The notes beneath the pieces were generated by a model. The model searched no databases. It was not told the origin of the DNA and saw nothing but the letters and a program-made list of their open reading frames with translations. DNA of 64,000 nucleotides from contig OZ037844.1 of NCBI GenBank assembly GCA_964035575.1, forward strand, positions 1,240,001-1,304,000. The letters are read 5' to 3'. This document shows, one piece after another, positions 9,106-58,131 of the stretch (positions within the stretch are counted from its first letter, which is position 1; each line of letters starts with the position of its first letter). The stretch is from Rhynchopus sp. YZ270_cl-10. Its lineage: Eukaryota. The translations under genes and the position numbers were made by a program.

Positions 9106-11103
9106 ATGTCGAAGCGACACGCAGACAGCACACCTGACGAGAAGGCATCAAAGAGAAGAAAGCTTTCAGACTCGGTCTTGGTGGAGGCTGCCAGGAACGG
9201 CGACACGACTGCCGTGCGGGTGGGACTTGAGAAGCTCAGCCCAGACACAGACAGCAAAACGGTTGCCTTCGATGCTGTGCACGAGGCATGCAGAGGGAAC
9301 CACGATGAATGCCTCGCACGACTTCTTCCCCACTACGTTGACCGAACGAACGGCTTTGGGATACTGCTGAGTGAGTGCATCCACGCAGACCACACTGCGT
9401 GCACGGAGGTCCTTTTGCAGCATTGGAAGTCATGCTCGGACAACACCCGTGTCTGCTTGGAAGTGGATGTGGACGAGCTCCTGCTGACCTGTCTGCACCT
9501 GAAGCGAGTGGAGGTGCTTGCGATGCTGCTGAAGGAACACAAGCTGGACCTGAATGGGAGGCGCATCAAGCCGTTGTGTGTGGCTGCACACCTTGGGGAT
9601 CTTGCGAGTGCAGAGCTGCTCGTCGCGTCTGGGGCAGGGGTGGAGGTGCAGAGTGAGAATGACGCGAGCTGTGCACGTCCGCTGTACATTGCAGCGTGCC
9701 GTGGCGATGCGGATGTGGTGCAGTTTCTTGTTGCGAAGGGTGCAGACTGCGAACACTGTGTTGATGGGATGACTGCGCTGGATGCTGCTGTTGCTGGGCA
9801 TCACCTTGCCTGTGTGAAGGCACTTCTTTCTGGCGGTGCTGTGGGCAAGCCTGTTGATGAGGAGGCAGCTCTTGTGCTGCGTGCGGTGCTTGCAGGGGCA
9901 GAGGACGTGCTCCACTTCGCCTTGGTGGAGGCTGCCAGGAACGGCGACACGACTGCCGTGCGGGTGGGACTTGAGAAGCTCAGACCAGACGAAGACAGCA
10001 AAACGGTTGCCTTCGATGCTGTGCACGAGGCATGCAGAGGGAACCACGATGAATGCCTCGCACTGCTTCTTCCGTATGTTGAGACAACGCAGATGGGCTT
10101 CGGGATGTTGCTGAGTGAGTGCATCCACGCAGACCACACTGCGTGCACGGAGGTCCTCTTGCAGCATTGGAAGTCAGTCTGCAGCAACGTTGCGTTTGTC
10201 CCACACGGGCAGGAGGCAGACAACGAAGATAATACACCTCGTCCCTGTCCAGCCATGTGGGAGGACCCTGCAGTGGGTCAGGTGCTCATTGATGCAGGGG
10301 CAGACATCGAGACAAAGGATGAGAAGGGACTTTCACCTCTTCTCAGGGCTAGCATTTCAGGCAAGATTGCAGTTGTGAAGATGTTGGTCAAAGCAGGTGC
10401 GGGAGTGTGTGTCACCGACAACGTAGGAGACACATGTCTTATGCTGGCTGCAGTCTTTGGACACACCGAGACTGTGCGCTATCTTGTGGGCTTGCCAGAG
10501 GTGAACGTGAATCACTCAGGTGATGAAGGCTTCACTGCGCTGCACTGGGCATGTCAAGAAGACTACCGCACTATGGTGCAGGTCCTCATTGATGCAGGTG
10601 CAGACATCGAGGCGAAGGACGAGGAGGGATATTCGCCTCTGCTCAGAGCGAGCAAGGATGCGTCTCTCGATACTGTGAAGATGTTGGTCAAAGCAGGTGC
10701 GGGAGTGTGCGCCACAGACAACAAAGGACACACATGTCTTACCCTTGCGGCATGGTGTGGACACACCGAGACTGTGCGCTATCTTTTGTGCTTGCCTGAG
10801 GTGGATGTGACTCAGTCAAATAACAGGGGATACACTGCACTGCATCGCGCAGTGCCAATGAAGCACGCAGATGTGGTGGAGGTGCTCATTGATGCAGGGG
10901 CAGACGTTGAGGGAAAGCGTGATGGGATCTGCAATACACCTCTGCACTATGCTTGTGAGGTTGGGGAACGCGAAATTGTGAGGATGTTACTGGAAGCAGG
11001 TGCAGACATCGAGGCAATAGACGAGAACGCGAGTAATGAAACACATGCAGATGTGGTGCAAGTTCTCCTGGAACACGGTGCGAGCAACGAACCCACCGCG
11101 TGA
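9106..11103 (+). CDS. Ankyrin-repeat protein, 665 aa, with duplicated N-terminal module
   Basis: NLS-like KR-x11-KRRK; VEAARNGDTTAV module present twice; canonical ankyrin repeats. Confidence 0.92.
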   Translation: MSKRHADSTPDEKASKRRKLSDSVLVEAARNGDTTAVRVGLEKLSPDTDSKTVAFDAVHEACRGNHDECLARLLPHYVDRTNGFGILLSECIHADHTACTEVLLQHWKSCSDNTRVCLEVDVDELLLTCLHLKRVEVLAMLLKEHKLDLNGRRIKPLCVAAHLGDLASAELLVASGAGVEVQSENDASCARPLYIAACRGDADVVQFLVAKGADCEHCVDGMTALDAAVAGHHLACVKALLSGGAVGKPVDEEAALVLRAVLAGAEDVLHFALVEAARNGDTTAVRVGLEKLRPDEDSKTVAFDAVHEACRGNHDECLALLLPYVETTQMGFGMLLSECIHADHTACTEVLLQHWKSVCSNVAFVPHGQEADNEDNTPRPCPAMWEDPAVGQVLIDAGADIETKDEKGLSPLLRASISGKIAVVKMLVKAGAGVCVTDNVGDTCLMLAAVFGHTETVRYLVGLPEVNVNHSGDEGFTALHWACQEDYRTMVQVLIDAGADIEAKDEEGYSPLLRASKDASLDTVKMLVKAGAGVCATDNKGHTCLTLAAWCGHTETVRYLLCLPEVDVTQSNNRGYTALHRAVPMKHADVVEVLIDAGADVEGKRDGICNTPLHYACEVGEREIVRMLLEAGADIEAIDENASNETHADVVQVLLEHGASNEPTA

Positions 11104-11814
11104 GTAGCTTTCTTGGTGGCTTTTCCTGGTATTTCGTGAGGATCGCGTTAGCTCACAAAGGGGGGATGGAATGACATTTGGAATGAAAAGAGGGAAGTGA
11201 AGGTGACACTGCACCAACGTCACAGGCGTGTGATAGCATCCATTATTATTACTGTCTTCATAAACTGTTTGGACCGGACATAGTTTGGTCCGTATTTTAC
11301 GGTTTTGCATTTCATTTGGCACTTCACACGGTCACCATTTTTACGAACACAGTATTTTATTGTCTTTCCCAGCTTTCCAACAGGAAATAGAAACGACTGC
11401 CTGCCCCACTTTTGTTTCGGTACGACATCTCTGTCTTTCTCAACACTCATTTCCCATCGGTTGCTCTTTCCATCTCCCCCACCTCCTCATGGGCAGTCCT
11501 CATCCAGGATCCCGCTTCCAGAGTCGGGTAACGGACAAGGCAAACATGCCTTCTAGGTTGTTTGATTACGACACAGCGAATTAGTTGCCAAGGGCTCTGT
11601 CACGAACACCAGGGGATAGGTTATTTTTGGAACACATCTGTGCGATGTGATGTGTGCTCGCGTCGTGGGGTTTGTGCAGGGTAGAGGGTCGGGGTGCTCT
11701 GCAGTGTGGATGCTGCAGGCCACATCCCTCGAGTTGTCTTTATAAGGCGAATGTATACCACCCACCACTCACCTCACAACCTCCAGAAAAGAAACAGCAT
11801 AAAAGACACAAACC

Positions 11815-13377
11815 ATGTCGAAGCGACACGCAGACAGCACCCCTGACGAGAAGGCACCAAAGAGAAGAAAGCTTTCTGCAGACTCGGTCTTGGTGGAGGC
11901 TGCCAGGAACGGCGACACGACTGCCGTGCGGGCGGGACTTGAGAAGCTCATCCCAGACACAGACAGCAAAACGGTTTCCTTCGATGCTGTGCACGAGGCA
12001 TGCAGAGGGAACCACGATGAATGCCTCGCACTGCTTCTTCCGTATGTTGAGACGACGCAGATGGGCTTCGGGATGCTGCTGAGTGAGTGCATCCACGCAG
12101 ACCACACTGCGTGCACGGAGGTCCTCTTGCAGCATTGGAAGTCAGTCTGCAGCAACGTTGCGTTTGTCCCACACGGGAGCAAGACGAAACCTCGTCCCTG
12201 TCCAGCCATGTGGGCGGACCCTGCAGTGTGTCAGGTGCTCATTGATGCAGGGGCAGACATCGAGACAAAGGATGAGAGGGGACTTTCACCTCTGCTATGG
12301 GCGAGCATTTCAGGCAAGATCGAAGTCGTGAAGATGTTGGTCAAAGCAGGTGCGGGAGTGCGTGTCACAGACACAGAAGGGCACACATGTCTTACCCTTG
12401 CGGCATGGAGTGGACACACCGAGACTGTGAAGATGTTGGTCAAAGCAGGTGCGGACCTGAGCGCTACAGACAACAAAGGAGATACATGTCTGACCATTGC
12501 GGCATGTTTTGGACACACCGAAATTGTGCGCTATCTTGTGGGCTTGCCAGAGGTGAACGTGAATCACTCAGGTGATGAAGGCTTCACTGCGCTGCACTGG
12601 GCATGTCAAGAAGACTACCGCACTATGGTGGAGGTCCTCATTGATGCAGGTGCAGACATCGAGGCGAAGGACGAGGAGGGATATTCGCCTCTGCTCAGAG
12701 CGAGCAAGGATGCGTCTCTCGATACTGTGAAGATGTTGGTCAAAGCAGGTGCGGGAGTGCGTGTGACAGACAACAGAGAACACACGTGTCTTACCCTTGC
12801 GGCATGGTGTGGACACACCGAGACTGTGCGCCATCTTTTGTGCTTGCCTGAGGTGGATGTGCATCAGTCAAATAACAGGGGATACACTGCACTGCATCGC
12901 GCAGTGGCAATGAAGCACTCTGCTGTGGTGGAGGTGCTCATTGATGCAGGGGCAGACGTTGAGGGAAAGCGTGATGGGATCTGCAATACACCTCTGCACT
13001 ATGCTTGTGAGGTTGGGGAACGCGAAATTGTGAGGATGTTACTGGAAGCAGGTGCAGACATCGAGGCAAAAGACGAGAACGGAGGATCGCCTCTGCTCTT
13101 GGCCAGCAAGGAAGGGTCTCTCGATACTGTGAAGAAGTTGCTTGAAGCAGGGGCGGACGTTTGTGCCACTAACGAGGTCGGAGACACATGTCTTTTATTT
13201 GCGGCTTATTGTGGACACACCGAGATTGTGCGCTATCTTGTGGGCTTGCCTGAGGTGGATGTGAATCACAGGACGAGGGCGGGCTGCACTGCGTTGCAGC
13301 GTGCGAGGAAGAAACCACATGCAGATGTGGTGCAGGTTCTCCTGGAACACGGTGCCAGCGACGAACCCACCGCGTGA
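11815..13377 (+). CDS. Ankyrin-repeat protein, 520 aa
   Basis: Conserved N-module plus GADIE/GxSPL, GxTCL, GxTALH repeat triplets. Confidence 0.93.
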   Translation: MSKRHADSTPDEKAPKRRKLSADSVLVEAARNGDTTAVRAGLEKLIPDTDSKTVSFDAVHEACRGNHDECLALLLPYVETTQMGFGMLLSECIHADHTACTEVLLQHWKSVCSNVAFVPHGSKTKPRPCPAMWADPAVCQVLIDAGADIETKDERGLSPLLWASISGKIEVVKMLVKAGAGVRVTDTEGHTCLTLAAWSGHTETVKMLVKAGADLSATDNKGDTCLTIAACFGHTEIVRYLVGLPEVNVNHSGDEGFTALHWACQEDYRTMVEVLIDAGADIEAKDEEGYSPLLRASKDASLDTVKMLVKAGAGVRVTDNREHTCLTLAAWCGHTETVRHLLCLPEVDVHQSNNRGYTALHRAVAMKHSAVVEVLIDAGADVEGKRDGICNTPLHYACEVGEREIVRMLLEAGADIEAKDENGGSPLLLASKEGSLDTVKKLLEAGADVCATNEVGDTCLLFAAYCGHTEIVRYLVGLPEVDVNHRTRAGCTALQRARKKPHADVVQVLLEHGASDEPTA

Positions 13378-14086: not shown

Positions 14087-16213
14087 ATGTCGAAGCGACA
14101 CGCAGACAGCACACCTGACGAGAAGGCATCAAAGAGAAGAAAGCTTTCAGACTCGGTCTTGGTGGAGGCTGCCAGGAACGGCGACACGACTGCCGTGCGG
14201 GTGGGACTTGAGAAGCTCAGCCCAGACACAGACAGCAAAACGGTTGCCTTCGATGCTGTGCACGAGGCATGCAGAGGGAACCACGATGAATGCCTCGCAC
14301 GACTTCTTCCCCACTACGTTGACCGAACGAACGGCTTTGGGATACTGCTGAGTGAGTGCATCCACGCAGACCACACTGCGTGCACGGAGGTCCTTTTGCA
14401 GCATTGGAAGTCATGCTCGGACAACACCCGTGTCTGCTTGGAAGTGGATGTGGACGAGCTCCTGCTGACCTGTCTGCACCTGAAGCGAGTGGAGGTGCTT
14501 GCGATGCTGCTGAAGGAACACAAGCTGGACCTGAATGGGAGGCGCATCAAGCCGTTGTGTGTGGCTGCACACCTTGGGGATCTTGCGAGTGCAGAGCTGC
14601 TCGTCGCGTCTGGGGCAGGGGTGGAGGTGCAGAGTGAGAATGACGCGAGCTGTGCACGTCCGCTGTACATTGCAGCGTGCCGTGGCGATGCGGATGTGGT
14701 GCAGTTTCTTGTTGCGAAGGGTGCAGACTGCGAACACTGTGTTGATGGGATGACTGCGCTGGATGCTGCTGTTGCTGGGCATCACCTTGCCTGTGTGAAG
14801 GCACTTCTTTCTGGCGGTGCTGTGGGCAAGCCTGTTGATGAGGAGGCAGCTCTTGTGCTGCGTGCGGTGCTTGCAGGGGCAGAGGACGTGCTCCACTTCG
14901 CCTTGGTGGAGGCTGCCAGGAACGGCGACACGACTGCCGTGCGGGTGGGACTTGAGAAGCTCAGACCAGACGAAGACAGCAAAACGGTTGCCTTCGATGC
15001 TGTGCACGAGGCATGCAGAGGGAACCACGATGAATGCCTCGCACTGCTTCTTCCGTATGTTGAGACAACGCAGATGGGCTTCGGGATGTTGCTGAGTGAG
15101 TGCATCCACGCAGACCACACTGCGTGCACGGAGGTCCTCTTGCAGCATTGGAAGTCAGTCTGCAGCAACGTTGCGTTTGTCCCACACGGGCACAAGGATG
15201 AGACCCAAGGTACGACACCTCGTCCCTGTCCAGCCATGTGGGAGGACCCTGCAGTGTGTCAGGTGCTCATTGATGCAGGTGCAGACATCGAGACAAAGGA
15301 TGAGGATGAACGTTCACCTCTGCTCAGGGCGAGCATTTCAAGCAAGTCCGCAGTTGTGAAGATGTTGGTCGAAGCAGGTGCGGGAGTGTGTGTCACAGAC
15401 CACAATGGAGACACGTGTCTTATGCTTGCTGCAGTCTTTGGACACATCGAGACTGTGCGCTATCTTGTGGGTTTGAAGGATGTGGACGTGAATCACGCAG
15501 AGAACAACGGCAACGCTGTGTTGCACTGGACAGTGCTGAAAGGACATGTCGATGTGGTGCAGGTGCTAATTGATGCAGGGGCAGACATAGAAGCGAGGAA
15601 CAAAGATGACGAACAGGGGCGTTCACCTCTGCTCTTGGCAAGTGTCGAAGGGCATCTCGATATTGTGAAGATGTTGGTCGAAGCAGGTGCGGGAGTCCGT
15701 GTCACAGACAACAATGGAGACACATGTCTTGACCTTGCGTCATTTTTTGGACACACCGAGATTGTGCGTTATCTTGTGGGCTTGCCAGAGGTGGACGCGA
15801 GCAAGAAGTCTACCGATGGTAACACTGCGATGATTCTTGCTGCTTTAGTCAGTCATGCAGCCGTGGTGGAGGTGCTCATTGATGCAGGTGCAGACATTGA
15901 TGGCAAGGACGAGAAGGGGAGGTCGCCTCTGCTATGGGCCAGTAAGAGAGGAGCACCGAATATTGTGAAGATATTGGTCAAAGCAGGTGCAGGAGTGTGT
16001 GTCACAGACAACCGTGGAGACACGTGTCTTACCCTTGCGGCTGCCAATGGACACACTGAGACTGTGCGTACTCTTCTGTGCATGCCTGAGGTGGACGTGA
16101 ATCACAGGACGAGGGCGGGCCGCACTGCGTTGCAGCGTGCGAGGAAGAAACCACATGCAGATGTGGTGCAGATTCTCCTGGAACACGGTGTCAGCGACGA
16201 ACCCACCGCGTGA
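14087..16213 (+). CDS. Ankyrin-repeat protein, 708 aa, with duplicated N-terminal module
   Basis: First ~368 aa identical to the 9106 gene; different repeat cassettes afterwards. Confidence 0.92.
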   Translation: MSKRHADSTPDEKASKRRKLSDSVLVEAARNGDTTAVRVGLEKLSPDTDSKTVAFDAVHEACRGNHDECLARLLPHYVDRTNGFGILLSECIHADHTACTEVLLQHWKSCSDNTRVCLEVDVDELLLTCLHLKRVEVLAMLLKEHKLDLNGRRIKPLCVAAHLGDLASAELLVASGAGVEVQSENDASCARPLYIAACRGDADVVQFLVAKGADCEHCVDGMTALDAAVAGHHLACVKALLSGGAVGKPVDEEAALVLRAVLAGAEDVLHFALVEAARNGDTTAVRVGLEKLRPDEDSKTVAFDAVHEACRGNHDECLALLLPYVETTQMGFGMLLSECIHADHTACTEVLLQHWKSVCSNVAFVPHGHKDETQGTTPRPCPAMWEDPAVCQVLIDAGADIETKDEDERSPLLRASISSKSAVVKMLVEAGAGVCVTDHNGDTCLMLAAVFGHIETVRYLVGLKDVDVNHAENNGNAVLHWTVLKGHVDVVQVLIDAGADIEARNKDDEQGRSPLLLASVEGHLDIVKMLVEAGAGVRVTDNNGDTCLDLASFFGHTEIVRYLVGLPEVDASKKSTDGNTAMILAALVSHAAVVEVLIDAGADIDGKDEKGRSPLLWASKRGAPNIVKILVKAGAGVCVTDNRGDTCLTLAAANGHTETVRTLLCMPEVDVNHRTRAGRTALQRARKKPHADVVQILLEHGVSDEPTA

Positions 16214-16924: not shown

Positions 16925-17921
16925 ATGTCGAAGCGACACGCAGACAGCACCCCTGACGAGAAGGCACCAAAGAGAAGAAAGCTTTCTGCAGACTCGGTCT
17001 TGGTGGAGGCTGCCAGGAACGGCGACACGACTGCCGTGCGGGCGGGACTTGAGAAGCTCAGCCCAGACACAGACAGCAAAACGGTTTCCTTCGATGCTGT
17101 GCACGAGGCATGCAGAGGGAACCACGATGAATGCCTCGCACGACTTCTTCCCCACTACGTTGACCGAACGAACGGCTTTGGGATCCTGCTGAGTGAGTGC
17201 ATCCACGCAGACCACACTGCGTGCACGGAGGTCCTCTTGCAGCATTGGAAGTCATGCTCGGACAACACCCGTGTCTGCTTGGAAGTCGATGTGGACGAGC
17301 TCCTGCTGACCTGTCTGCACCTGAAGCGAGTGGAGGTTTCCAACAGGAAATAGAAACGACTGCCTGCCCCACTTTTGTTTCGGTACGACATCTCTGTCTT
17401 TCTCAACACTCATTTCCCATCGGTTTTTCGCGACCGCACGACTTGCACAGCATACGTGACGCCTACAGACGTGCTGGAGGCACTGCTTGATACTGGGGCA
17501 GACACCGAGGCAAAGAATGTGGAGGGGTGGTCGGCGCTACTCGTTGCGAGCAGCGCAGGTGAAGCAAAATCTGTGAAGCTGTTAGTCGAAGCAGGTGCGG
17601 GAGTGTGTGTCACAGACAACGAAGGACGCACATGTCTTATTCTTGCGTCAGGCGCTGGACACATGTCTTGACCTTGCGTCATTTTTTGGACACACCGAGA
17701 CTGTGCGCTATCTTGTGGGTTTGAAGGAGGTGAACGTGAACTACCTAGGTTATGAAGGCTGTACTGCGTTACACTTAGCTGCACAACAAGTTCTTCCTGA
17801 TGTGGTGAAGCTTCTGTTGGAGCACGGTGCGGACAAGTCGTTGTGCAATGAGGCGGGGGAGACGGCACTTGATAATGCAGCAGCAGGTGGGTGTCGTGAG
17901 TGTTGTCGGCTCTTGAGCTGA
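16925..17921 (+). pseudogene. Rearranged ankyrin gene: truncated N-terminus (16925-17338), inserted spacer fragment, frameshifted C-terminal repeats (~17468-17921)
   Basis: Coding sequence switches at ~17338 into spacer sequence TTCCAACAGGAAATAG; repeats resume at ~17468 with a frameshift at ~17660; C-cap as in the 18301 gene. Confidence 0.85.
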
Positions 17922-18300: not shown

Positions 18301-20040
18301 ATGTCGAAGCAACACACAGACAGCACCGAAAAGAAGTCACGGAAGAGAAGAAAGCTTTCAGACCAGGTCTTGGTGGAGGCTGCCAGGAACGGCGACAGGA
18401 CTGCCGTGCGGGTGGGAATTTGGGAGCTCAGCCCAGACACAGTCAGCAAAACGGTTGCCTTCGATGCTGTGCACGAGGCATGCAGAGGGAACCACGATGA
18501 ATGCCTCGCACTGCTTCTTCCGTATGTTGAGACAACGCAGATGGGCTTCGGGATGCTGCTGAGTGAGTGCGTCCACGCAGACCACACTGCGTGCACGGAG
18601 GTCCTCTTGCAGCATTGGAAGTCAGTCTGCAGCAACGTTGCGTTTGTCCCACACGGGCAGGAGGCAGACATCGACGGTAAGACACCTCGTCCCTGTCCAG
18701 CCATGTGGGCGGACCCTGCAGTGTGTCAGGTGCTCATTGATGCAGGGGCAGACATCGAGACAAAGGATGAGGATGGACGTTCACCTCTGCACGTGGCGAG
18801 CTCTTACGGCAATCTTGGCATTGTGAGGATGTTGGGCAAAGCAGGTGCGGACGTGAGTGTCAGAAGCAAGGGTGGCAGCACAACTCTTCACTTTGCTGCA
18901 CATCAAGGACACACCGAGACTGTGCACTATCTTGCGGGCTTGAAGGATGTGGACGTCAATCACTCAGGTGTTGACGGCTACACTGCGTTGCACTTCGCAG
19001 TGCAGCAACAGTTTCCCGATGTGGTGAAGGTGCTCATTGATGCAGGTGCAGACATCGAGGCTAAGGCTGATAGGGGGTCTTCTCCTCTGTTGAAGGCGAG
19101 CAGCACAGGACAACTCAGAGTTGTGAAGATGTTGATCGAAGCAGGTGCCGGGGTGGGTGTAATGAACAACGATGGAAAGACGTGTCTTATGTTTGCTGCG
19201 GATGCTGGACACACCGAGACTGTGCGCTATCTTGTGGACTTGCCGCAGGTCGAAGTGAACCAAGCAGATAGGAGCGACGGGGCTACTGCGTTGCACTTCG
19301 CATGTCAGAAGTATCCCGATGTGGCGCAGGTGCTCATTGATGCAGGTGCAGACATCGAGACAAAGGATTACCTGGAATATTCGCCTCTGCTCAAGGCGAG
19401 CACTTCAGGAGCACTCGATGTTGTGAAGGTGTTGGTCAGATCAGGTGCGGAAATGTGCGAGGCAGACCATGCAGGGGACCCATGTCTTATCCTTGCAGCA
19501 TATCATGGACACATCGAGACTGTGCGCACTCTTCTGTGCATGCCTGAGGTGGGCATAGATAACCCAGGAGCGTGCGGCTTCACTGCGTTGCACCACGCAG
19601 CACGTCAAGGACATGCAGATGTGCTGCAGGCACTGCTTGATGCAGGGGCAGACATCGAGGCAAAGAATGTGGAGGGGAGGTCGGCGCTACTCGTGGCGAG
19701 CATCGCAGGTGAAGCAAAATCTGTGAAGCTGTTAGTCGAAGCAGGTGCGGGAGTGTGTGTCACTGAGAACAACGGACTCACATGTCTTACGATTGCGTCA
19801 CATTTTGGACACACCGAGACTGTGCGTTATCTTGTGGGTTTGAAGGAGGTGGACGTGAATCACGCAGCGAACAGCGGCTGCACTGCGTTACACTTAGCTG
19901 CATATCAAAGGCTTCCGGATGTGGTGAAGCTTCTGTTGGAGCACGGTGCGGACAAGTCGTTGTGCAATGAGGGAGAGGAGACGGCACTTGATAATGCAGC
20001 AGCAGGTGGGTGTCGTGAGTGTTGTCGGCTCTTGAGCTGA
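18301..20040 (+). CDS. Ankyrin-repeat protein, 579 aa
   Basis: Conserved N-module, triplet cassettes, C-cap ...GGCRECCRLLS. Confidence 0.93.
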   Translation: MSKQHTDSTEKKSRKRRKLSDQVLVEAARNGDRTAVRVGIWELSPDTVSKTVAFDAVHEACRGNHDECLALLLPYVETTQMGFGMLLSECVHADHTACTEVLLQHWKSVCSNVAFVPHGQEADIDGKTPRPCPAMWADPAVCQVLIDAGADIETKDEDGRSPLHVASSYGNLGIVRMLGKAGADVSVRSKGGSTTLHFAAHQGHTETVHYLAGLKDVDVNHSGVDGYTALHFAVQQQFPDVVKVLIDAGADIEAKADRGSSPLLKASSTGQLRVVKMLIEAGAGVGVMNNDGKTCLMFAADAGHTETVRYLVDLPQVEVNQADRSDGATALHFACQKYPDVAQVLIDAGADIETKDYLEYSPLLKASTSGALDVVKVLVRSGAEMCEADHAGDPCLILAAYHGHIETVRTLLCMPEVGIDNPGACGFTALHHAARQGHADVLQALLDAGADIEAKNVEGRSALLVASIAGEAKSVKLLVEAGAGVCVTENNGLTCLTIASHFGHTETVRYLVGLKEVDVNHAANSGCTALHLAAYQRLPDVVKLLLEHGADKSLCNEGEETALDNAAAGGCRECCRLLS

Positions 20041-44976: not shown

Positions 44977-45019
<43 letters not shown>

Positions 45020-46577: not shown

Positions 46578-48266
46578 ATGTCGAAGGACGAGGAACACGC
46601 AGACAGCACACCCGACGAGAAGGCATCAAAGAGAAGAAAGCTTTCAGACTCGGTCTTGGTGGAGGCTGCCAGGAACGGCGACACGACTGCCGTGCGGGTG
46701 GGACTTGAGAAGCTCAGCCCAGACACAGACAGCAAAACGGTTGCCTTCGATGCTGTGCACGAGGCATGCAGAGGGAACCACGATGAATGCCTCGCACTGC
46801 TTCTTCCGTATGTTGAGACAACGCAGATGGGCTTCGGGATGCTGCTGAGTGAGTGCATCCACGCAGACCACACTGCGTGCACGGAGGTCCTCTTGCAGCA
46901 TTGGAAGTCAGTCTGCAGCAACGTTGCGTTTGTCCCACACGGGATAGAGGTAGATAGCGAAGATAAGACACCTTGTCCCTGTCCAGCCATGTGGGCGGAC
47001 CCTGCAGTGTGTCAGGTGCTCATTGATGCAGGGGCAGACATCGAGACAAAGAATGAGAATGGACGTTCACCTCTGCTCAGGGCGAGCGTTTCAGGCAAGA
47101 TCGCAGTTGTGAAGATGTTGGTTGAAGCAGGTGCGGACGTGTGTGTCACAGACAACGAAGGAGACTCATGTCTTACCCTTGCGGCATGGAGTGAACACAC
47201 CGAGACTGTGCGTTATCTTGTGGGTTTGAAGGATGTGGACGTGAATCACGCAGAGAACGACGGCGACACTGCGTTGCACTTCGCAGTGCAGGAAGGACAT
47301 GGCGATGTGGTGCAGGTGCTAATTGATGCAGGTGCAGACCTAGAGGCAAAGAACAAAGATGACGAGCAGGGGCGTTCACCTCTGCTCTTGGCAAGCGTCG
47401 AAGGGCATCTCGATATTGTGAAGATGTTGGTCGAAGCAGGTGCGGGGGTGCGTGTAACAGACAACGAAGGTGACACGTGTCTTATCCTTGCGTCACTCCG
47501 TGGACACACCGAGACTGTGCGCTATCTTGTTGGATTGAAGGAGGTGGAAGTGAATCAGAAGGATAACGATGGCTTCACTGCTCTGCCCCTTGCTGCTTCA
47601 GGAAGTCATGCAGATGTGGTGAAGGTGCTCATTGATGCAGGGGCAGACATCGAGACAAAGGATGAGACGGGACGTTCGCCTCTGCACTGGGCTTGCTGTT
47701 CAGGAGCACTCGCAGTTGTGAAGGTGTTGGTCAAAGCAGGTGCAGACGTGTGTGTCACAAACAACAAAGGAAACACGTGTCTCATGCTTGCGGCACATAA
47801 TGGACACACCGAGACTGTGCGTACTCTTCTGTGCATGCCTGAGGTGGACGTGAATCAGTCGAATACCGGGGGCTGCACTGCACTGGTCGGTACAGTGATG
47901 CTGAAGCACTCAGATGTACTGGAGGTGCTTATTGATGCAGGGGCAGACATTGGGGCAAAGAGTGATAGGATGGTACGTACGCCTCTTCACAGTGCTTGTG
48001 AGGTTGGGGAACGCGATATTGCGAAGATGTTGGTCGAAGCAGGTGCGGATGTGTGTTCCACAGACAACGATGGAAACAGTTGTCTTTCTCTTGCTGCTTA
48101 TTTTGGACACACCGACACTGTGCGTTACCTTTTGGGCTTGAAGGATGTGGATGTGAACCACAGGTGTTTGTCTGGCCACACTGCGTTGCACCATGCGAGA
48201 CAGAAACAACATACAGATGTGGAGCAGGTTCTCCTCGAGCACGGTGGGGAAGTCTTCCCGCAATGA
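46578..48266 (+). CDS. Ankyrin-repeat protein, 562 aa from the conserved Met
   Basis: Conserved N-module; C-cap and 3' flank shared with the 24862 gene. Confidence 0.92.
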   Translation: MSKDEEHADSTPDEKASKRRKLSDSVLVEAARNGDTTAVRVGLEKLSPDTDSKTVAFDAVHEACRGNHDECLALLLPYVETTQMGFGMLLSECIHADHTACTEVLLQHWKSVCSNVAFVPHGIEVDSEDKTPCPCPAMWADPAVCQVLIDAGADIETKNENGRSPLLRASVSGKIAVVKMLVEAGADVCVTDNEGDSCLTLAAWSEHTETVRYLVGLKDVDVNHAENDGDTALHFAVQEGHGDVVQVLIDAGADLEAKNKDDEQGRSPLLLASVEGHLDIVKMLVEAGAGVRVTDNEGDTCLILASLRGHTETVRYLVGLKEVEVNQKDNDGFTALPLAASGSHADVVKVLIDAGADIETKDETGRSPLHWACCSGALAVVKVLVKAGADVCVTNNKGNTCLMLAAHNGHTETVRTLLCMPEVDVNQSNTGGCTALVGTVMLKHSDVLEVLIDAGADIGAKSDRMVRTPLHSACEVGERDIAKMLVEAGADVCSTDNDGNSCLSLAAYFGHTDTVRYLLGLKDVDVNHRCLSGHTALHHARQKQHTDVEQVLLEHGGEVFPQ

Positions 48267-48741: not shown

Positions 48742-51700
48742 ATGTCGAAGGAGCAACACGCAGACAGCGAAGAGAACCCACCGAAGAGAAGGCAGCTTTC
48801 AGACTCGGTCTTGGTGGAGGCTGTGAGGAACGGCGACACGACTGCCGTGCGGGTGGGACTTGAGAAGCTCAACCCAGACACAGACACAGACAGCAAAACG
48901 GTTGCCTTCGATGCTGTGCACGAGGCATGCAGAGGGAACCACGATGAATGCCTCGCACTGCTTCTTCCGTATGTTGAGACAACGCAGATGGGCTTTGGGA
49001 TCCTGCTGAGTGAGTGCGTCCACGCAGACCACACTGCGTGCACGGAGGTCCTCTTGCAGCATTGGAAGTCAGTCTGCAGCAACGTTGCGTTTGTCCCACA
49101 CGGGCAGGAGGCAGACAACGAAGATAAGACACCTCGTCCCTGTCCAGCCATGTGGGCGGACCCTGCAGTGTGTCAGGTGCTCATTGATGCAGGGGCAGAC
49201 ATCGAGACAAAGGATGAGGATGGACGTTCACCTCTTCTCAGGGCGAGCATTTCAGGCAAGTCCGCAGCTGTGAAGATGTTGGTCGAAGCAGGTGCAGACG
49301 TGTGTGTCACAGACAAGCAAGGAGATACGTGTCTTACCCTTGCGTCTTGTTTTGGACAAACTGAAAATGTGCGCTATCTTGTGGGTTTGAAGGAGGTGGA
49401 TGTGAATCACACAAGCGAGGACGGCTACACTGTGTTGCACTGTGCAGGTGAAAACAACTACCCTGTAGTGTGTCAGGTGCTCATTGATGCAGGGGCAGAC
49501 ATCGAGACAAAGGAAAACAAGGGACGTCCACCTCTTCACAAGGCTAGCAGTTCAGGAGCACTCAATGTTGTGAAGGTGTTGGTCGAAGCAGGTGCAGACG
49601 TGTGTGTCACAGATAACACCGGACGCACGTGTCTTATCTTTGCGGCAATGTTTGGACACACCGAGACTGTGCGCTATCTTGTGGGTTTGAAGGATGTGGA
49701 CGTGAATTACTCAGGTTATGAATGCTGCAGTGCTTTGAGCCATGCAGTTGTGGGAAACCACGCAGACGTGGTGCAGGTGCTCATTGATGCAGGTGCCGAC
49801 ATTGAGACACAGGAAAAGAAGGGACGTTCGCCTCTTCACAAGGCTAGCAGTTCAGGAGCACTCAATGTTGTGAAGGTGTTGGTCGAAGCAGGTGCAGACG
49901 TGTGTGTCACAGATAACCTGGGACGAACATGTGTTGCCCTTGCGTCTCATTTGGGACACACCGAGACTGTGCGTTACCTTGCGGGTTTGAAGGAGGTGGA
50001 CTTGGAGCACGCTGATAGCACGGGACGCACTGCGTTGAGCCATGCAGTTGTTGCAAACCACGCAGACGTGGTGGAGGTGCTCATTGCTGCAGGGGCAGAT
50101 ATTGAGACAAGAGACAATCACGACCGTACGCCGCTCCTGGTGGCGAGCCAGTGTGGGAATCTCCGAGTTGTGGAGGTGTTCGCCAAAGCAGGTGCAGACG
50201 TGTGTGTCACAGATAACAAAAGACGCACGTGTCTTACCCTTGCGGCTGCCAGTGGACACACCGAGACTGTGCGCTATCTTACGGGCTTGGAGGATGTGGG
50301 CGTAAATCACTCAGGTGATGAAGGCTGCACTGCGTTGCACTGGGCAAGTAAAAAAAGCTATCCTGAAGTAGTTCAGGTGCTCATTGATGCAGGGGCCGAT
50401 ATTGAGGCTAAGGAAGAGAAGGGACGTTCGCCTCTTCACAAGGCTTGCATGTCGGGGCATCTCGATATTGTGAAGCTGTTAGTCAGATCAGGTGCGGGAG
50501 TGCGTGCCACAGACAACAAAGGAGTCACGTGCCTTATCGGTGCGTCATATTTGGGACACACCGAGACTGTGCGCTACCTTGTGGGTTTGAAGGATGTGGA
50601 CATAAATCACGTTGATAGCACAGGCTGTACTGCGTTGAGACATGCAGCTGTGCGAAACCACGCAGATGCGGTGCAGGTGCTCATTGATGCAGGGGCAGAC
50701 ATCGAGGTGAAGGATGAGGAGGGACGTTCACCTCTGCTCGTATCGAACTGTTTGGGCCACCTCGATATTGCGATAATGTTAGTCAAAGCAGGTGCGGACG
50801 TGTGTGTCACAGACAACAAAGGACGCACGTGTCTTACCCTTGCGTCTTATTATGGACACACCGAGACTGTGCACTACCTTGTGGGTTTGAAGGAGGTGGA
50901 CGTGAATCACTCAGGTGATGAAGGCTTCACTGCGTTGCACTGGGCAGGTCAAAAAAACCATCCTGAAGTAGTTCAGGTGCTCATTGATGCAGGGGCAGAC
51001 TTCGAGGCTAAGGAAGAGGAGGGACGTTCGCCTCTTCACAAGGCTTGCAATTCAGGGCATCTCGATATTGTGAAGCTGTTAGTCAGATCAGGTGCGGGAG
51101 TGCGTGCCACAGACAACAAAGGAGTCACATGTCTTATCGGTGCGTCATATTTGGGACACACCGAGACTGTGCGTTACCTTGTGGGTTTGAAGGAGGTGGA
51201 CATAAATCACGTTGATAGCACAGGCTGTACTGCGTTGAGACATGCAGCTGTGCGAAACCACGCAGATGCGGTGGAGGTGCTCATTGATGCAGGGGCAGAC
51301 ATCGAGGTGAAGGATGAGGAGGGACGTTCACCTCTGCTCGTATCGAACTGTTTGGGCCACCTCGATATTGCGATAATGTTAGTCAAAGCAGGTGCGGACG
51401 TGTGTGTCACAGACAACAAAGGACGCACGTGTTTTGCCCTTGCGTCTTATTATGGACATACCGAGACTGTGCGTTACCTTGCGGGTTTGAAGGAGGTGGA
51501 CTTGGAGCACGCTGATAGCACGGGACGCACTGCGTTGAGCCATGCAGTTGTTGCAAACCACGCAGACGTGGTGGAGGTGCTCATTGATGCAGGGGCAGAT
51601 ATTGAGACAAGAGGCAACCACGACCGTACGCCGCTCCTGGTGGCGAGCCAGTGTGGGAATCTCCAAGTTGTGAAGGTGTTGGTCAAAGCAGGTGCGGATG

Positions 51701-52215
51701 TGTGTGTCACACACGACAATGGAGACACATGTCTTGCCGTTGCTGCTGCCAATGGACACTCCGAGACTGTGCGTACTCTTCTGTGCTTGCCTGAGGTGGA
51801 TGTGAATCATTCAAATAACAGGGGCTTCACTTCACTGCACCGCGCAGTGTTAAAGAAGCACTCTGATGTGGTGCAGCTGCTCATTGATGCAGGGGCAGAC
51901 ATTGAGGTGAAGCGAGACAGAATTTCACCTCTTCGTTGTGCTTGTGACGTTGGGGAACTCGACATTGTGAAGATGTTGGTCGAAGCAGGTGTGGACGTGT
52001 GTGAGGTAGACAACAAAGGAAACACGTGTCTTATCATTGCGGCCCATTTTGGACACACCGAGACTGTGCGCTATCTTGTGGGATTACCGGAGGTGGATGT
52101 GAACCACAGAAATGTTTCTGGCCTGACTGCGTTGCAGCATGCGAGCCACAAACAACATGCAGATGTGGTGCAGATTCTCTTCTGTGCTTCAGGCAAAGAT
52201 ATTTTCCCTTTTTGA
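48742..52215 (+). CDS. Ankyrin-repeat protein, 1157 aa (~10 triplet cassettes)
   Basis: 300-bp periodic repeats after the conserved N-module. Confidence 0.93.
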   Translation: MSKEQHADSEENPPKRRQLSDSVLVEAVRNGDTTAVRVGLEKLNPDTDTDSKTVAFDAVHEACRGNHDECLALLLPYVETTQMGFGILLSECVHADHTACTEVLLQHWKSVCSNVAFVPHGQEADNEDKTPRPCPAMWADPAVCQVLIDAGADIETKDEDGRSPLLRASISGKSAAVKMLVEAGADVCVTDKQGDTCLTLASCFGQTENVRYLVGLKEVDVNHTSEDGYTVLHCAGENNYPVVCQVLIDAGADIETKENKGRPPLHKASSSGALNVVKVLVEAGADVCVTDNTGRTCLIFAAMFGHTETVRYLVGLKDVDVNYSGYECCSALSHAVVGNHADVVQVLIDAGADIETQEKKGRSPLHKASSSGALNVVKVLVEAGADVCVTDNLGRTCVALASHLGHTETVRYLAGLKEVDLEHADSTGRTALSHAVVANHADVVEVLIAAGADIETRDNHDRTPLLVASQCGNLRVVEVFAKAGADVCVTDNKRRTCLTLAAASGHTETVRYLTGLEDVGVNHSGDEGCTALHWASKKSYPEVVQVLIDAGADIEAKEEKGRSPLHKACMSGHLDIVKLLVRSGAGVRATDNKGVTCLIGASYLGHTETVRYLVGLKDVDINHVDSTGCTALRHAAVRNHADAVQVLIDAGADIEVKDEEGRSPLLVSNCLGHLDIAIMLVKAGADVCVTDNKGRTCLTLASYYGHTETVHYLVGLKEVDVNHSGDEGFTALHWAGQKNHPEVVQVLIDAGADFEAKEEEGRSPLHKACNSGHLDIVKLLVRSGAGVRATDNKGVTCLIGASYLGHTETVRYLVGLKEVDINHVDSTGCTALRHAAVRNHADAVEVLIDAGADIEVKDEEGRSPLLVSNCLGHLDIAIMLVKAGADVCVTDNKGRTCFALASYYGHTETVRYLAGLKEVDLEHADSTGRTALSHAVVANHADVVEVLIDAGADIETRGNHDRTPLLVASQCGNLQVVKVLVKAGADVCVTHDNGDTCLAVAAANGHSETVRTLLCLPEVDVNHSNNRGFTSLHRAVLKKHSDVVQLLIDAGADIEVKRDRISPLRCACDVGELDIVKMLVEAGVDVCEVDNKGNTCLIIAAHFGHTETVRYLVGLPEVDVNHRNVSGLTALQHASHKQHADVVQILFCASGKDIFPF

Positions 52216-53218: not shown

Positions 53219-55177
53219 ATGTCGAAGGAGCAACACGCAGACAGCACACCTGGCGAGAAGGCAAAGAGAAGAAAGCTTTCTGCAGACTCGGTCTTGGTGG
53301 AGGCTGCCAGGAACGGCGACACGACTGCCGTGCGAGCAGGACTTGAGAAGCTCAGCCCAGACACAGACAGCAAAACGGTTGCCTTCGATGCTGTGCACGA
53401 GGCATGCAGAGGGAACCACGATGAATGCCTCGCACTGCTTCTTCCGTATGTTGAGACAACGCAGATGGGCTTCGGGATGCTGCTGAGTGAGTGCATCCAC
53501 GCAGACCACACTGCGTGCACGGAGGTCCTCTTGCAGCATTGGAAGTCAGTCTGCAGCAACGTTGCGTTTGTCCCACACGGGTGCAACATGAAACCTCGTG
53601 CCTGTCCAGCCATGTGGGCGGACCCTGCAGTGTGTCAGGTGCTCATTGATGCAGGGGCAGACATCGAGACAAAGGATGAGGATGGACGTTCACCTCTTCT
53701 CAGGGCGAGCGTTTCAGGCAAGATCGCAGTTGTGAAGATGTTGGTTGAAGCAGGTGCAGACGTGTGTGTCACAGACAAGCAAGGAGACACATGTCTTGCC
53801 CTTGCGTCTTGTTTTGGACACACCGAGACTGTGCGCTATCTTGTGGGTTTGAAGGATGTGGACGTGAATCACGCATGCGATGAAGGCTACACTGCATTGC
53901 ACTGTGCAGGTCAAAAAAACCACCCTGTAGTGTGTCAGGTGCTCATTGATGCAGGGGCAGATATTGAGGCAAAGGAAGAGAAGGGACGTTCACCTCTTCA
54001 CAATGCTGGCCTGTCAGGAGCACTCTATGTTGTGAAGGTGTTGGTCGAAGCAGGTGCGGACGTGTGTGTCACAGACAACAAAGGTGACACATGTCTGATA
54101 CTTGCGTCATATTTGGGACACACCGAGACTGTGCGTTACCTTGTGGGCTTGAAGGGGGTGGACATGAAGCACGTTGATAGCATAGGCTGTACTGCATTGA
54201 GCCATGCAGTTGTGCGAAACCACCCGGACGTGGTGCAGGTGCTCATTGATGCAGGGGCTGATATTGAGACAAGAGGCAACCACGACCGTACGCCGCTCGT
54301 GGTGGCGAGCCAGTGTGGGAATCTCCGAGTTGTGAAGATGTTGGTCAAAGCAGGTGCGGGTGTGTGTGTCACTGACAACCAGGGACGCATGTGTCTTACC
54401 CTTGCGGCTGCCAGTGGACGCACCGAGACTGTGCGCCATCTTGCGGGTTTGAAGGAGGTGGACGTGAATCACGTTGATAGCACAGGCTGCACTGCATTGA
54501 GACATGCAGCTGCGGGAAACCACGCAGATGTGTTAGAGGTGCTCATTGATGCAGGGGCAGATATTGAGACAAGAGACAACCACGACCGTACCCCGCTCCT
54601 GGTGGCGAGCCAGTGTGGGAATCTCCGAGTTGTGAAGATGTTGGTCAAAGCAGGTGCAGACGTGTGTGTCACCGACAACGAAGGAGACACATGTCTTACC
54701 CTTGCGGCTGCCAGTGGACACACCGAGACTGTGCGTACTCTTCTGTGCTTGCCTGAGGTGGATGTGAATCATGCAAAGTACAACGGCTTGACTTCACTGC
54801 ACCTCGCAGTGTTAAAGAAGCACTCTGCTGTGGTGCAGCTGCTCATTGATGCAGGGGCAGACATTGAGGTGAACCGAAACAGACTTACACCTCTTCGCTG
54901 TGCTTGTGACGTTGGGGAACTCGACATTGTACAGATGTTGGTCGAAGCAGGTGTGGACGTGTGTGAGGTAGACAACAAAGGAAACACGTGTCTTATCATT
55001 GCGGCCCATTTTGGACACACCGAGACTGTGCGCTATCTTGTGGGATTACCGGAGGTGGATGTGAACCACAGAAATGTTTCTGGCCTGACTGCGTTGCAGC
55101 ATGCGAGCCACAAACAACATGCAGATGTGGTGCAGATTCTCTTCTGTGCTTCAGGCAAAGATATTTTCCCTTTTTGA
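53219..55177 (+). CDS. Ankyrin-repeat protein, 652 aa
   Basis: Conserved N-module, five triplets, C-cap identical to the 48742 gene. Confidence 0.93.
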   Translation: MSKEQHADSTPGEKAKRRKLSADSVLVEAARNGDTTAVRAGLEKLSPDTDSKTVAFDAVHEACRGNHDECLALLLPYVETTQMGFGMLLSECIHADHTACTEVLLQHWKSVCSNVAFVPHGCNMKPRACPAMWADPAVCQVLIDAGADIETKDEDGRSPLLRASVSGKIAVVKMLVEAGADVCVTDKQGDTCLALASCFGHTETVRYLVGLKDVDVNHACDEGYTALHCAGQKNHPVVCQVLIDAGADIEAKEEKGRSPLHNAGLSGALYVVKVLVEAGADVCVTDNKGDTCLILASYLGHTETVRYLVGLKGVDMKHVDSIGCTALSHAVVRNHPDVVQVLIDAGADIETRGNHDRTPLVVASQCGNLRVVKMLVKAGAGVCVTDNQGRMCLTLAAASGRTETVRHLAGLKEVDVNHVDSTGCTALRHAAAGNHADVLEVLIDAGADIETRDNHDRTPLLVASQCGNLRVVKMLVKAGADVCVTDNEGDTCLTLAAASGHTETVRTLLCLPEVDVNHAKYNGLTSLHLAVLKKHSAVVQLLIDAGADIEVNRNRLTPLRCACDVGELDIVQMLVEAGVDVCEVDNKGNTCLIIAAHFGHTETVRYLVGLPEVDVNHRNVSGLTALQHASHKQHADVVQILFCASGKDIFPF

Positions 55178-56178: not shown

Positions 56179-58131
56179 ATGTCGAAGGAGCAACACGCAG
56201 ACAGCACACCTGACGAGAAGGCATCAAAGAGAAGAAAGCTTTCTGCAGACTCGGTCTTGGTGGAGGCTGCCAGGAACGGCGACACGACTGCCGTGCGGGT
56301 GGGACTTGAGAAGCTCAACCCAGACACAGACACAGACAGCAAAACGGTTGCCTTCGATGCTGTGCACGAGGCATGCAGAGGGAACCACGATGAATGCCTC
56401 GCACTGCTTCTTCCGTATGTTGAGACAACGCAGATGGGCTTCGGGATGCTGCTGAGTAAGTGCATCCACGCAGACCACACTGCGTGCACGGAGGTCCTCT
56501 TGCAGCATTGGAAGTCAGTCTGCAGCAACGTTGCGTTTGTCCCACACGGGTGCAACACGAAAGGAAATAAACTTCGTCCCTGTCCAGCCATGTGGGCGGA
56601 CCCTGCAGTGTGTCAGGTGCTCATTGATGCAGGGGCAGACATCGAGGTGAAGGATGAGGATGGACGTTCACCTCTGCTCAGGGCGAGCATTTCAGGCAAG
56701 CCCGCAGTTGTGAAGATGTTGGTTGAAGCAGGTGCGGGAGTGCGTGTCACAGACAACCAAGGACTCACGTGTCTTGCTCTTGCGTCTTGTTTTGGACGCA
56801 CCGAGACTGTGCGTTATCTTGCGGGTTTGAAGGAGGTGGACGTGAACTACCTAGGTGATGAAGGCTTCACTGCGTTGCACTGGGCAGGTCAAAAAAACCA
56901 TCCTGAAGTAGTTCAGGTGCTTATTGATGCAGGTGCAGACATCGAGGTGAAGGATGAGGAGGGATATTCGCCTCTGCTCAGGGTAAGCAAGTCAGGAGCA
57001 CTCAATGTTGTGAAGATGTTGGTCGAAGCAGGTGCGGACGTGTGTGTCACAGACAACAAAGGACGCACGTGTCTTATCTTTGCGGCACATAAAGGACACA
57101 CCGAGACTGTGCGCTATCTTGTGGGTTTGAAGGATGTGGACGTCAATCAGTCAGGTGATGAAGTCTGCAGTGCGTTGAGACGTGCAGTTGTGGGAAACCA
57201 CGCAGACGTGGTGCAGGTGCTCATTGATGCAGGGGCCGATATTGAGACAAAGGACCAGAAGGGACGTTCGCCTCTTCACAATGCTGGCAGTTCAGGAGCA
57301 CTCGATGTGCTGAAGACGTTAGTCAAAGCAGGTGCGGACGTCTGCGTCACAGACAGCACAGGACGCACATGTCTTATCTTTGCGGCACATAGAGGACATA
57401 CCGAGACTGTGCGCTATCTTGTTGGCTTGAAGGATGTGGACGTGAATCACGTTGATACCACGGGCTGGCCTGCATTGAGACATGCAGCTGTGCGAAACCA
57501 CCCGGACGTGGTGCAGGTGCTCATTGATGCAGGGGCAGATATTGAGACAAGAGACAACCACGACCGTACCCCACTCCTGGTGGCGAGCCAGTGTGGGAAT
57601 CTCCGAGTTGTGAAGGTGTTGGTCAAAGCAGGTGCGGATGTGTGTGTCACAGATAACAAAGGACTCACGTGTCTTACCCTTGCGGCTGGTTTAGGACACT
57701 CCGAGACTGTGCGTACTCTTCTGTGCTTGCCTGAGGTGGATGTGAATCAGTCACATAACAGGGGCTTCACTTCACTCCACTGCGCAGTGTTAAAGAAGCA
57801 CTCAGATGTGGTGCAGCTGCTCATTGATGCAGGGGCAGACATCGAGGTGAACCGAGACAGAATTTCACCTCTTCGTTGTGCTTGTGACGTCGGGGAACTC
57901 GACATTGTGCAAATGTTGGTGGAAGCAGGTGCGGGAGTGCGTGCCACAGACAACGAAGGAAACACATGTCTTATCCTTGCGGCACAAAAAGGACACACCG
58001 AGACTGTGCGCTATCTTGTGGGATTACCGGAGGTGGATGTGAACCACAGAAATGTTTCTGGCCTGACTGCGTTGCAGCATGCGAGCCACAAACAACATGC
58101 AGATGTGGTGCAGATTCTTTCTCTCATTTGA
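56179..58131 (+). CDS. Ankyrin-repeat protein, 650 aa
   Basis: Conserved N-module, five triplets. Confidence 0.93.
   Translation: MSKEQHADSTPDEKASKRRKLSADSVLVEAARNGDTTAVRVGLEKLNPDTDTDSKTVAFDAVHEACRGNHDECLALLLPYVETTQMGFGMLLSKCIHADHTACTEVLLQHWKSVCSNVAFVPHGCNTKGNKLRPCPAMWADPAVCQVLIDAGADIEVKDEDGRSPLLRASISGKPAVVKMLVEAGAGVRVTDNQGLTCLALASCFGRTETVRYLAGLKEVDVNYLGDEGFTALHWAGQKNHPEVVQVLIDAGADIEVKDEEGYSPLLRVSKSGALNVVKMLVEAGADVCVTDNKGRTCLIFAAHKGHTETVRYLVGLKDVDVNQSGDEVCSALRRAVVGNHADVVQVLIDAGADIETKDQKGRSPLHNAGSSGALDVLKTLVKAGADVCVTDSTGRTCLIFAAHRGHTETVRYLVGLKDVDVNHVDTTGWPALRHAAVRNHPDVVQVLIDAGADIETRDNHDRTPLLVASQCGNLRVVKVLVKAGADVCVTDNKGLTCLTLAAGLGHSETVRTLLCLPEVDVNQSHNRGFTSLHCAVLKKHSDVVQLLIDAGADIEVNRDRISPLRCACDVGELDIVQMLVEAGAGVRATDNEGNTCLILAAQKGHTETVRYLVGLPEVDVNHRNVSGLTALQHASHKQHADVVQILSLI

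What the first reader, a model, noticed from the sequence alone, without database searches (positions are those of the whole stretch)
10381..58020. RVD-like hypervariable di-residue in the B repeat
In TCLxxA(A/S)-XX-G(H/R)TETV the two residues before G take more than 20 states: VF, WC, WS, CF, YC, FF, AN, HQ, DA, YH, HF, AC, RN, YF, LR, HN, MF, HL, AS, YL, YY, HK, HR, GL, QK. The flanking codons barely change even at synonymous sites. This is reminiscent of the TALE repeat-variable di-residue or a CDR. Together with the NLS it raises the possibility of a modular specificity code. The ligand (protein or nucleic acid) cannot be determined from sequence.
Basis: partly seen in the sequence, partly recalled or inferred. 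Interest (0 to 1): 0.75.

Follow-up and report, generated by a model that had tools for sequence, protein, structure and literature searches.

The report
Natural DARPin-like ankyrin repertoire, not TALE
The two variable residues are real, but they are the usual variable positions of an ankyrin repeat; in this large gene family of what is likely a marine protist they and three neighbouring positions appear to be driven to diversify, which likely makes a library of protein-binding surfaces rather than a DNA-reading code.

Summary
The tally is exact: 42 B repeats, the same 25 di-residues. They are ankyrin positions 13-14, at the end of helix 1, positions that engineered ankyrin libraries randomise. 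They are not special: hairpin positions 3 and 5 and helix positions 9-10 vary about as much, repeats A and C vary at 13-14 too, and unrelated ankyrins give more states (33±2 per 41 repeats). No TALE feature tested was met; the proteins are acidic (pI 4.9-5.8).

What is unusual is the evolution. In a 78%-identical framework, B positions 3, 5, 9, 13, 14 show diversifying selection (omega about 3-6; likelihood ratio 18.6 against a maximum of 12.2 in 152 null simulations). Repeat pieces are exchanged in short tracts. The family has about 126 clusters or more, with no NOD or effector domain seen, in a likely diplonemid.

Best reading: a natural DARPin-like repertoire of protein binders, evolving like the repeats of fungal NLRs but standing alone, often with an NLS-like motif. 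Ligand, location and expression are untested.

The parts
9106..11103 (+). Ankyrin gene 1 (665 aa), doubled N-terminal region with a divergent ankyrin insert, 2 B repeats (VF, WC)
11815..13377 (+). Ankyrin gene 2 (520 aa), 4 B repeats (WS, CF, WC, YC), two of them adjacent
14087..16213 (+). Ankyrin gene 3 (708 aa), doubled N-terminal region, 3 B repeats (VF, FF, AN)
18301..20040 (+). Ankyrin gene 4 (579 aa), 4 B repeats (HQ, DA, YH, HF)
24862..26223 (+). Ankyrin gene 5 (453 aa), 3 B repeats (AC, RN, YF)
46578..48266 (+). Ankyrin gene 6 (562 aa), 4 B repeats (WS, LR, HN, YF)
48742..52215 (+). Ankyrin gene 7 (1157 aa), 10 B repeats, about 9.8 copies of the 300-nt A-B-C unit
53219..55177 (+). Ankyrin gene 8 (652 aa), 5 B repeats (CF, YL, AS, AS, HF)
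56179..58131 (+). Ankyrin gene 9 (650 aa), 5 B repeats (CF, HK, HR, GL, QK); folded as an ankyrin solenoid, mean pLDDT 87
56179..56241 (+). Low-confidence (likely disordered) N-terminal 21 residues holding the basic KRRK NLS-like motif (function untested)
   Evidence: NLS consensus recalled, from no call
57388..57393 (+). Example di-residue (HR), ankyrin positions 13-14, last residue of helix 1 and first of the turn
8131..8391 (+). 3' fragment of an ankyrin gene (one B, one terminal C repeat), no start
16925..17353 (+). 5' fragment of an ankyrin gene (N-terminal region only)
17466..17921 (+). 3' fragment; two different B cores (GA, then FF) lie in tandem 31 nt apart at 17630/17661, shifting the frame
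27731..28023 (+). 5' fragment of an ankyrin gene (N-terminal region only)

Best explanation
These are stand-alone ankyrin-repeat proteins built from a three-repeat 100-residue unit, whose di-residue is ankyrin positions 13-14 and likely forms, with positions 3, 5, 9 and 10 of every repeat, one continuous protein-binding groove that is likely kept diverse by selection. Shown: ankyrin identity and register, the spread of variation, excess amino-acid change at these codons in B, short-range decay of linkage, variable unit number, gene fragments. Inferred: point mutations at groove codons are favoured by selection; unequal crossing-over and short gene-conversion tracts between the 70-80% identical 300-nt units recombine them and change array length; tandem gene duplication and loss make a large repertoire. 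Inferred with less support: the ligands are proteins of fast-changing antagonists (viruses, mobile elements, bacterial endosymbionts or parasites), bound in the nucleus by members that keep the NLS-like motif, and neutralised by binding or passed to a partner, since no catalytic or signalling domain was seen.
For: Pfam finds only ankyrin families above cut-off in 8 of 8 ankyrin ORFs scanned, apart from marginal low-score hits. Alignment to DARPin 5LE2 puts the di-residue on the DARPin LAA-xx-GH positions; the model puts it at the end of helix 1; top fold matches are ankyrins and DARPins. PMC4308713 (passages) randomises 2, 3, 5, 10, 13, 33 and shows a continuous binding surface on beta-turn and helix 1. 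Codon models on 38 A-B-C units: M1a vs M2a 2dL = 90 for B, sites 3, 9, 13, 14 with posterior >0.95, omega 2.5-6; pooled positions 3,5,9,10,13,14 give beta > alpha on three different trees (p 5e-7 to 5e-5), and in A (p 7e-4) and C (p 6e-3); with synonymous rate variation LR = 18.6, above 152 of 152 null simulations, half with recombination. Tree-free: in 10 pairs chosen on A and C only, pN at the di-residue 0.37 against pS 0.18 (Fisher p 0.007). 26 codon states give 24 amino-acid states and 24 of 26 have a single-base neighbour. r2 falls from 0.21 to 0.05 within about 50 nt (p 0.0005); A, B and C trees reject each other. Precedent in fungal NLR ANK repeats (PMC4986451, passages).
Against: Position 13 alone fails the site test with its own synonymous rate (p 0.67-1.0) and 13+14 pooled is only p 0.02-0.05. 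Synonymous rates vary widely between sites, so omega is uncertain. The LRs of A (11.9) and C (10.4) were reached by 2 and 4 of the 152 B-tuned nulls, and nulls gave up to 7 sites with posterior >0.9, so single-site calls are weak. The codon models are my own grid code with fixed kappa on one window.
Confidence: 0.7

Rival explanations
1. Relaxed constraint: positions 13-14 are tolerant surface sites that drift, while gene conversion and codon preference keep the flanks alike; no selection for diversity.
For: Same positions are the variable ones in any ankyrin; several synonymous sites are nearly invariant, which lowers the neutral yardstick; four gene fragments lie among nine intact genes; position 13 alone is not significant.
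Against: Non-synonymous rate exceeds the synonymous rate of the same codons when pooled, survives nulls with recombination and rate variation and a tree-free test; other surface positions such as 25-28 on the far side are not elevated in B.
Confidence: 0.17
2. Endogenous adaptors: the family binds the cell's own nuclear proteins (I-kappa-B-like inhibitors or chromatin adaptors), diversified by paralog specialisation rather than by conflict. This shares the binding-groove reading of the best explanation and differs in the ligand.
For: NLS-like motif, acidic ankyrin stack, no effector domain; ankyrins commonly bind proteins through the concave face (PMC8229355, passages).
Against: Rapid birth and death, unit shuffling and loss of the basic motif in part of the family fit conflict better than stable partnerships (inference).
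Confidence: 0.08
3. TALE-like code: each repeat reads one base of DNA or RNA through the di-residue.
For: Near-identical 33-34 aa repeats with a variable pair just before a Gly, an NLS-like motif, and some His/Asn-containing pairs (HN, HH, YN).
Against: Ankyrin fold, no TALE match; 117 states in 359 B repeats, led by YF, YH, HH, CF, against a handful of TALE codes with Asn/His first (PMC3978159, passages); variation not confined to the pair; pI 4.9-5.8 with more D+E than K+R in 9 of 9 proteins; K+R only 12% of variable B positions; no constant Lys/Gln after the Gly.
Confidence: 0.04
4. Targeted hypermutation or template-driven diversification (DGR- or cassette-like) of these six nucleotides.
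For: High synonymous estimate at codon 13; low synonymous change in the 18 nt behind the pair; a misaligned join of two B cores at 17630/17661; the B core is almost unlinked from its neighbours (rho <= 0.22).
Against: Almost no synonymous variants within the pair (TAT 10 of 10 Tyr, TTT 14 of 14 Phe); changes involve all four bases; all blocks of the unit are weakly linked, not only the B core; no reverse transcriptase among 13 long ORFs scanned.
Confidence: 0.04

Closest known systems
Fungal NLRs with high-internal-conservation ANK repeats (e.g. Podospora Pa_3_8560; PMC4986451, PMC13449251, passages read)
   Same: Near-identical repeats, about five positively selected positions on inner helix and hairpin of the concave face, repeat-number variation, exchange of repeats between genes.
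   Different: No NACHT/NB-ARC and no effector domain here; three-repeat period rather than one; framework identity lower (0.64-0.78); NLS-like N-terminus; far larger tandem family; protist host.
DARPins / ANK-N5C engineered libraries (PMC8683736, PMC4308713, passages read)
   Same: Constant ankyrin frame with variable positions 2/3, 5, 10, 13, 14, 33 (13-14 in the classic DARPin design is recalled and seen in the 5LE2 alignment), capped arrays.
   Different: Natural, selected in vivo; position 9 also varies in B (the usual His is replaced); Cys frequent; up to about 30 repeats.
TAL effectors (PMC3978159, passages read)
   Same: Tandem 33-35 aa repeats with two adjacent variable residues before a Gly; NLS.
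   Different: Different fold; one di-residue per repeat with few states read as bases; phosphate-binding Lys/Gln; none of this is met here.
Generic long ankyrin arrays with high internal identity (unnamed P0350, P0282, P0260)
   Same: Conserved frame (0.78-0.91) with variable 13-14 (39-57% distinct pairs).
   Different: Single proteins from other sources; B repeats here have somewhat higher entropy at 13-14 for the same framework identity (3.14/3.03 against 1.5-2.9/1.1-2.0).

Membership tests
Ankyrin-repeat proteins | 33-residue helix-turn-helix-hairpin repeat matching Pfam Ank families | tested here: met
   (E 1e-64 to 1e-197)
Ankyrin-repeat proteins | Stacked ankyrin solenoid fold | tested here: met
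   (predicted model, pLDDT 87; best matches ankyrin-1/-2 and DARPins)
TAL effectors | TALE repeat sequence and superhelical fold | tested here: not met
   no TALE family in Pfam scan; none among the listed top 50 fold ranks
TAL effectors | Variation confined to one di-residue per repeat with few states | tested here: not met
   about six variable positions per repeat; 117 states in 359 B repeats
TAL effectors | Conserved Lys/Gln for DNA phosphate contact right after the di-residue | tested here: not met
   G-H-T-E-T-V follows in B; proteins acidic
TAL effectors | Sequence-specific DNA binding, one base per repeat | not testable with these tools
   needs SELEX or similar
HIC-repeat NLRs | NACHT or NB-ARC ATPase domain with N-terminal effector | tested here: not met
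   none in window genes, nor in the precomputed domains of the 120 listed and 6 longer family proteins
HIC-repeat NLRs | High internal repeat conservation | tested here: inconclusive
   framework identity B 0.78, A 0.65, C 0.64; 300-nt units 72-78% matches; Psim itself not computed
HIC-repeat NLRs | Positive selection on a few concave-face positions | tested here: met
   for B; weaker for A and C
HIC-repeat NLRs | Repeat exchange within and between genes | tested here: met
HIC-repeat NLRs | Repeat-number polymorphism between strains and a role in non-self recognition | not testable with these tools
   only short contigs were available
Diversity-generating retroelement | Reverse transcriptase, template repeat, adenine-specific changes | tested here: not met
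   no RT among scanned long ORFs; changes at all bases; only this window examined

The most novel reading that the evidence does not exclude
A free-living diplonemid carries an antibody-like innate repertoire: hundreds of stand-alone, nucleus-targeted natural DARPins whose binding grooves are diversified by selection and short-tract exchange to recognise proteins of viruses, mobile elements or endosymbionts, without any NLR-type switch. (The still bolder reading, a base-reading code, is not formally excluded but I put it near 0.04.)
Probability: 0.3. Interest if true: 0.75.

Novelty: new variant of a known kind. Interest (0 to 1): 0.42.

Why it matters
As a 'new RVD' it does not stand: these are the textbook variable positions of ankyrin repeats. 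[quoted passage not shown] If the ligands are foreign, this would be a recognition repertoire in a unicellular eukaryote built from bare ankyrin arrays, and would show that the concerted-evolution-plus-selection regime of fungal NLR repeats works without a NOD domain. It is also a natural map of which ankyrin positions tolerate change (including position 9), of modest use for binder design. I found no description of the family in five literature searches; the main text of the D. papillatum genome paper has no 'ankyrin' (its supplements were not read and may mention it).

Tried and rejected
No whole genome is held, so the genome-wide codon tally was not possible; the family-wide tally is at protein level on the 120 best hits of 1024. 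One search used a wrong pattern and found nothing (corrected); one search had a numerical fault (redone). Pairs picked on B's own framework inflate the contrast and were replaced by pairs picked on A and C. The low synonymous rate of the 18-nt 3' flank was tested as a special element: borderline after allowing for window choice (p 0.051), left open. Sequencing runs: no RNA holder listed. Summed contig depth over the shared N-terminal region is over a thousand times that of the unique 3' flank, but the tool states that it is no copy number, so it is not used. ESM Atlas on residues 1-150 returned only ankyrin-like clusters, many viral; no conclusion on origin drawn. Search for longer fused forms: 6 family members, ankyrin only; weak evidence by the tool's own note. 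Earlier findings of the scan: none in three look-ups. No complex was predicted, as there is no candidate partner. PMC149896 was not held.
Full report
Context. The window is eukaryotic and intron-poor, with nearly all long frames on the + strand. Its acyl-CoA dehydrogenase (20284-21489) has Diplonema papillatum as best named microbial hit at 71% identity (a nematode-labelled fusion protein scored higher by E-value at 57% identity), and in a tree of 26 of the 99 hits it falls in an 8-row group with that protein (support 93/91). The host is therefore likely a diplonemid other than D. papillatum. No whole genome is held.

Anatomy. Nine intact single-exon ankyrin ORFs of 453-1157 aa and four fragments lie in the window. 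Each starts with a roughly 21-residue low-confidence tail bearing a basic motif (KRRK in 8 of 9, KRRQ in one), then three degenerate ankyrin repeats and a loop, then copies of a 300-nt unit of three repeat types, A (SPLL/H), B (TCL) and C (TALH). Pfam finds ankyrin families and nothing else of weight in the 8 ORFs scanned. The AlphaFold model of the 650-aa protein is a regular ankyrin solenoid (mean pLDDT 87.4) whose best matches are ankyrin-1/-2 and DARPins. A search with the N-terminal 200 residues gave 1024 hits; the 120 listed are all unnamed, 54-100% identical, ankyrin proteins on many large contigs; six longer members are also ankyrin-only. Whether all come from one genome is not shown.

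The observation. 42 B repeats carry 25 di-residues, exactly those listed. The six codons behind the pair are nearly invariant; those before it are not. Across the 100-codon unit this window has the lowest synonymous rate (0.2 of average) but only at p = 0.051 after permutation. Contigs of runs X1 and X3 bridge the GL pair without a difference.

What the pair is. Alignment to DARPin 5LE2 places it on the LAA-xx-GH positions, ankyrin 13-14; in the model they are the last residue of helix 1 and the first of the turn. PMC4308713 (passages) randomises 2, 3, 5, 10, 13, 33 and reports a continuous binding surface over beta-turn and helix 1; PMC8229355 (passages) states that DARPins bind through randomised positions on the concave face. 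In the window, B varies at 3, 5, 9, 13, 14 (entropy 2.99, 2.46, 2.44, 3.14, 3.03 bits) and A and C vary at the same kind of positions. In 120 family proteins (359 B, 279 A, 276 C repeats; 5 proteins gave no B match) the pair has 117, 85 and 103 states, and positions 3+5 have 118, 79 and 113. In 642 repeats from 100 of 134 unrelated ankyrin proteins (10 family-like ones removed; the pattern picks canonical repeats only), 41 random repeats give 33.4 +- 2.3 states. So the pair is neither unique to B nor more variable than in ankyrins at large.

What is unusual. B reaches close to generic diversity inside a frame that is 78% identical, with pi-N 0.66 and 0.61 at 13 and 14 against pi-S 0.24-0.28. 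On 38 complete A-B-C units (4 of 42 B repeats lacked a neighbour), my grid codon models give M1a vs M2a 2dL = 90 with positions 3, 9, 13, 14 in the selected class. With site-specific synonymous rates, pooled positions 3,5,9,10,13,14 keep beta > alpha on three trees (p 5e-7 to 5e-5), in A (7e-4) and in C (6e-3); 14, 3 and 5 pass singly, 13 does not (p 0.67-1.0), 13+14 pooled give 0.02-0.05. A dual-rate test gives LR 18.6 for B, above all 152 nulls (maximum 12.2; 76 with recombination); A (11.9) and C (10.4) lie in the null tail (2 and 4 of 152), and nulls produced up to 7 false high-posterior sites. Ten disjoint unit pairs chosen on A and C alone give pN 0.37 at the pair, 0.29 at other groove positions and 0.05 in the frame, against pS 0.18 (Fisher p 0.007 for the pair, on rounded counts). 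The 26 codon states encode 24 residue states and 24 are one base from another observed state, as expected from stepwise mutation and selection and not from a hypermutator.

Exchange. Linkage between framework sites falls from r2 0.21 (1-10 nt) to about 0.05 beyond 50 nt (p 0.0005); trees of A, B and C reject one another, though each partition favouring its own tree is partly expected, and units are mosaic (50827 and 51427 identical in A, 37% apart in C). Unit number runs from 2 to 10, segments of 1-4.5 kb with flanks are duplicated at 89-96%, and one fragment holds two different B cores joined out of frame.

Against a TALE-like code. TALE repeats vary only at 12-13, have a few codes led by Asn or His, and bind phosphate through a following Lys-Gln (PMC3978159, passages). 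Here fold, spread of variation, number of states and charge all differ: pI 4.9-5.8, D+E above K+R in 9 of 9 proteins, variable B positions 49% aromatic, His or aliphatic and 12% K/R. Nucleic-acid binding itself cannot be tested here.

Comparison. The closest system is the high-internal-conservation ANK array of fungal NLRs, where five positions on inner helices and hairpin are under positive selection and repeats are exchanged (PMC4986451, PMC13449251, passages). This family works like those sensor domains but is not an NLR: no NACHT/NB-ARC or effector was found. PMC13449251 reports HIC in 5.59% of repeat proteins without an ATPase domain, and several unrelated arrays show the same pattern, so the principle is known. 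The stand-alone, three-repeat, NLS-like, multi-copy form in a diplonemid was not found in print (listings, abstracts and passages only, no supplements).

Verdict. Real pattern, ordinary position, interesting family. Best reading (0.7): a natural DARPin-like repertoire of protein binders under diversifying selection with short-tract shuffling; a defence role is a plausible inference (0.3 for the full bold form). Interest 0.42; new variant of a known kind.

Noticed in passing
window 5551-7479: A B-box / ubiquitin-like / BspA-type leucine-rich-repeat gene directly upstream of the ankyrin cluster, broken by two frame shifts in the LRR part; possibly a second variable-repeat family with a TRIM-like flavour.
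   Followed up: partly
window 17630-17691: Two different B cores (GA then FF) joined 31 nt apart at a short shared motif, a trace of misaligned recombination inside B; GA is a 26th di-residue state.
   Followed up: partly
window 9106-11103 and 14087-16213: Both genes carry the N-terminal region twice with a divergent ankyrin block between, a chimeric form also begun in the fragment at 16925.
   Followed up: no
window 8142-17337: Recent tandem duplication of gene plus about 1.1 kb of intergenic DNA, four copies at 92-96% identity.
   Followed up: partly
family proteins P0001-P0120: The basic N-terminal motif is replaced in some members (e.g. P0009, P0021, P0024, P0035), suggesting members with different localisation.
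   Followed up: no
B repeat positions 7 and 9: The usual TPLH motif is replaced by TCL(I/T/M): an almost invariant Cys at 7 and a variable, selected residue in place of His at 9.
   Followed up: partly
window 33750-35057: A protein with two Rab-like GTPase domains in tandem and a C-terminal GGCCK end.
   Followed up: no
window 59115-63998: Large open frame (over 1628 aa, runs off the window) with a signal-peptide-like start, a coiled region and many Cys-rich EGF-like units by eye; no Pfam hit at E 0.5.
   Followed up: no
window 22316-22828, 32606-33352, 38813-39221: A dispersed non-coding repeat of about 350 nt in both orientations, 72-90% identical, possibly a small mobile element.
   Followed up: no
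window 2016-2684 and 3522-4211: Two tandem DSBA-like thioredoxin genes after a Pus10 3' part.
   Followed up: no
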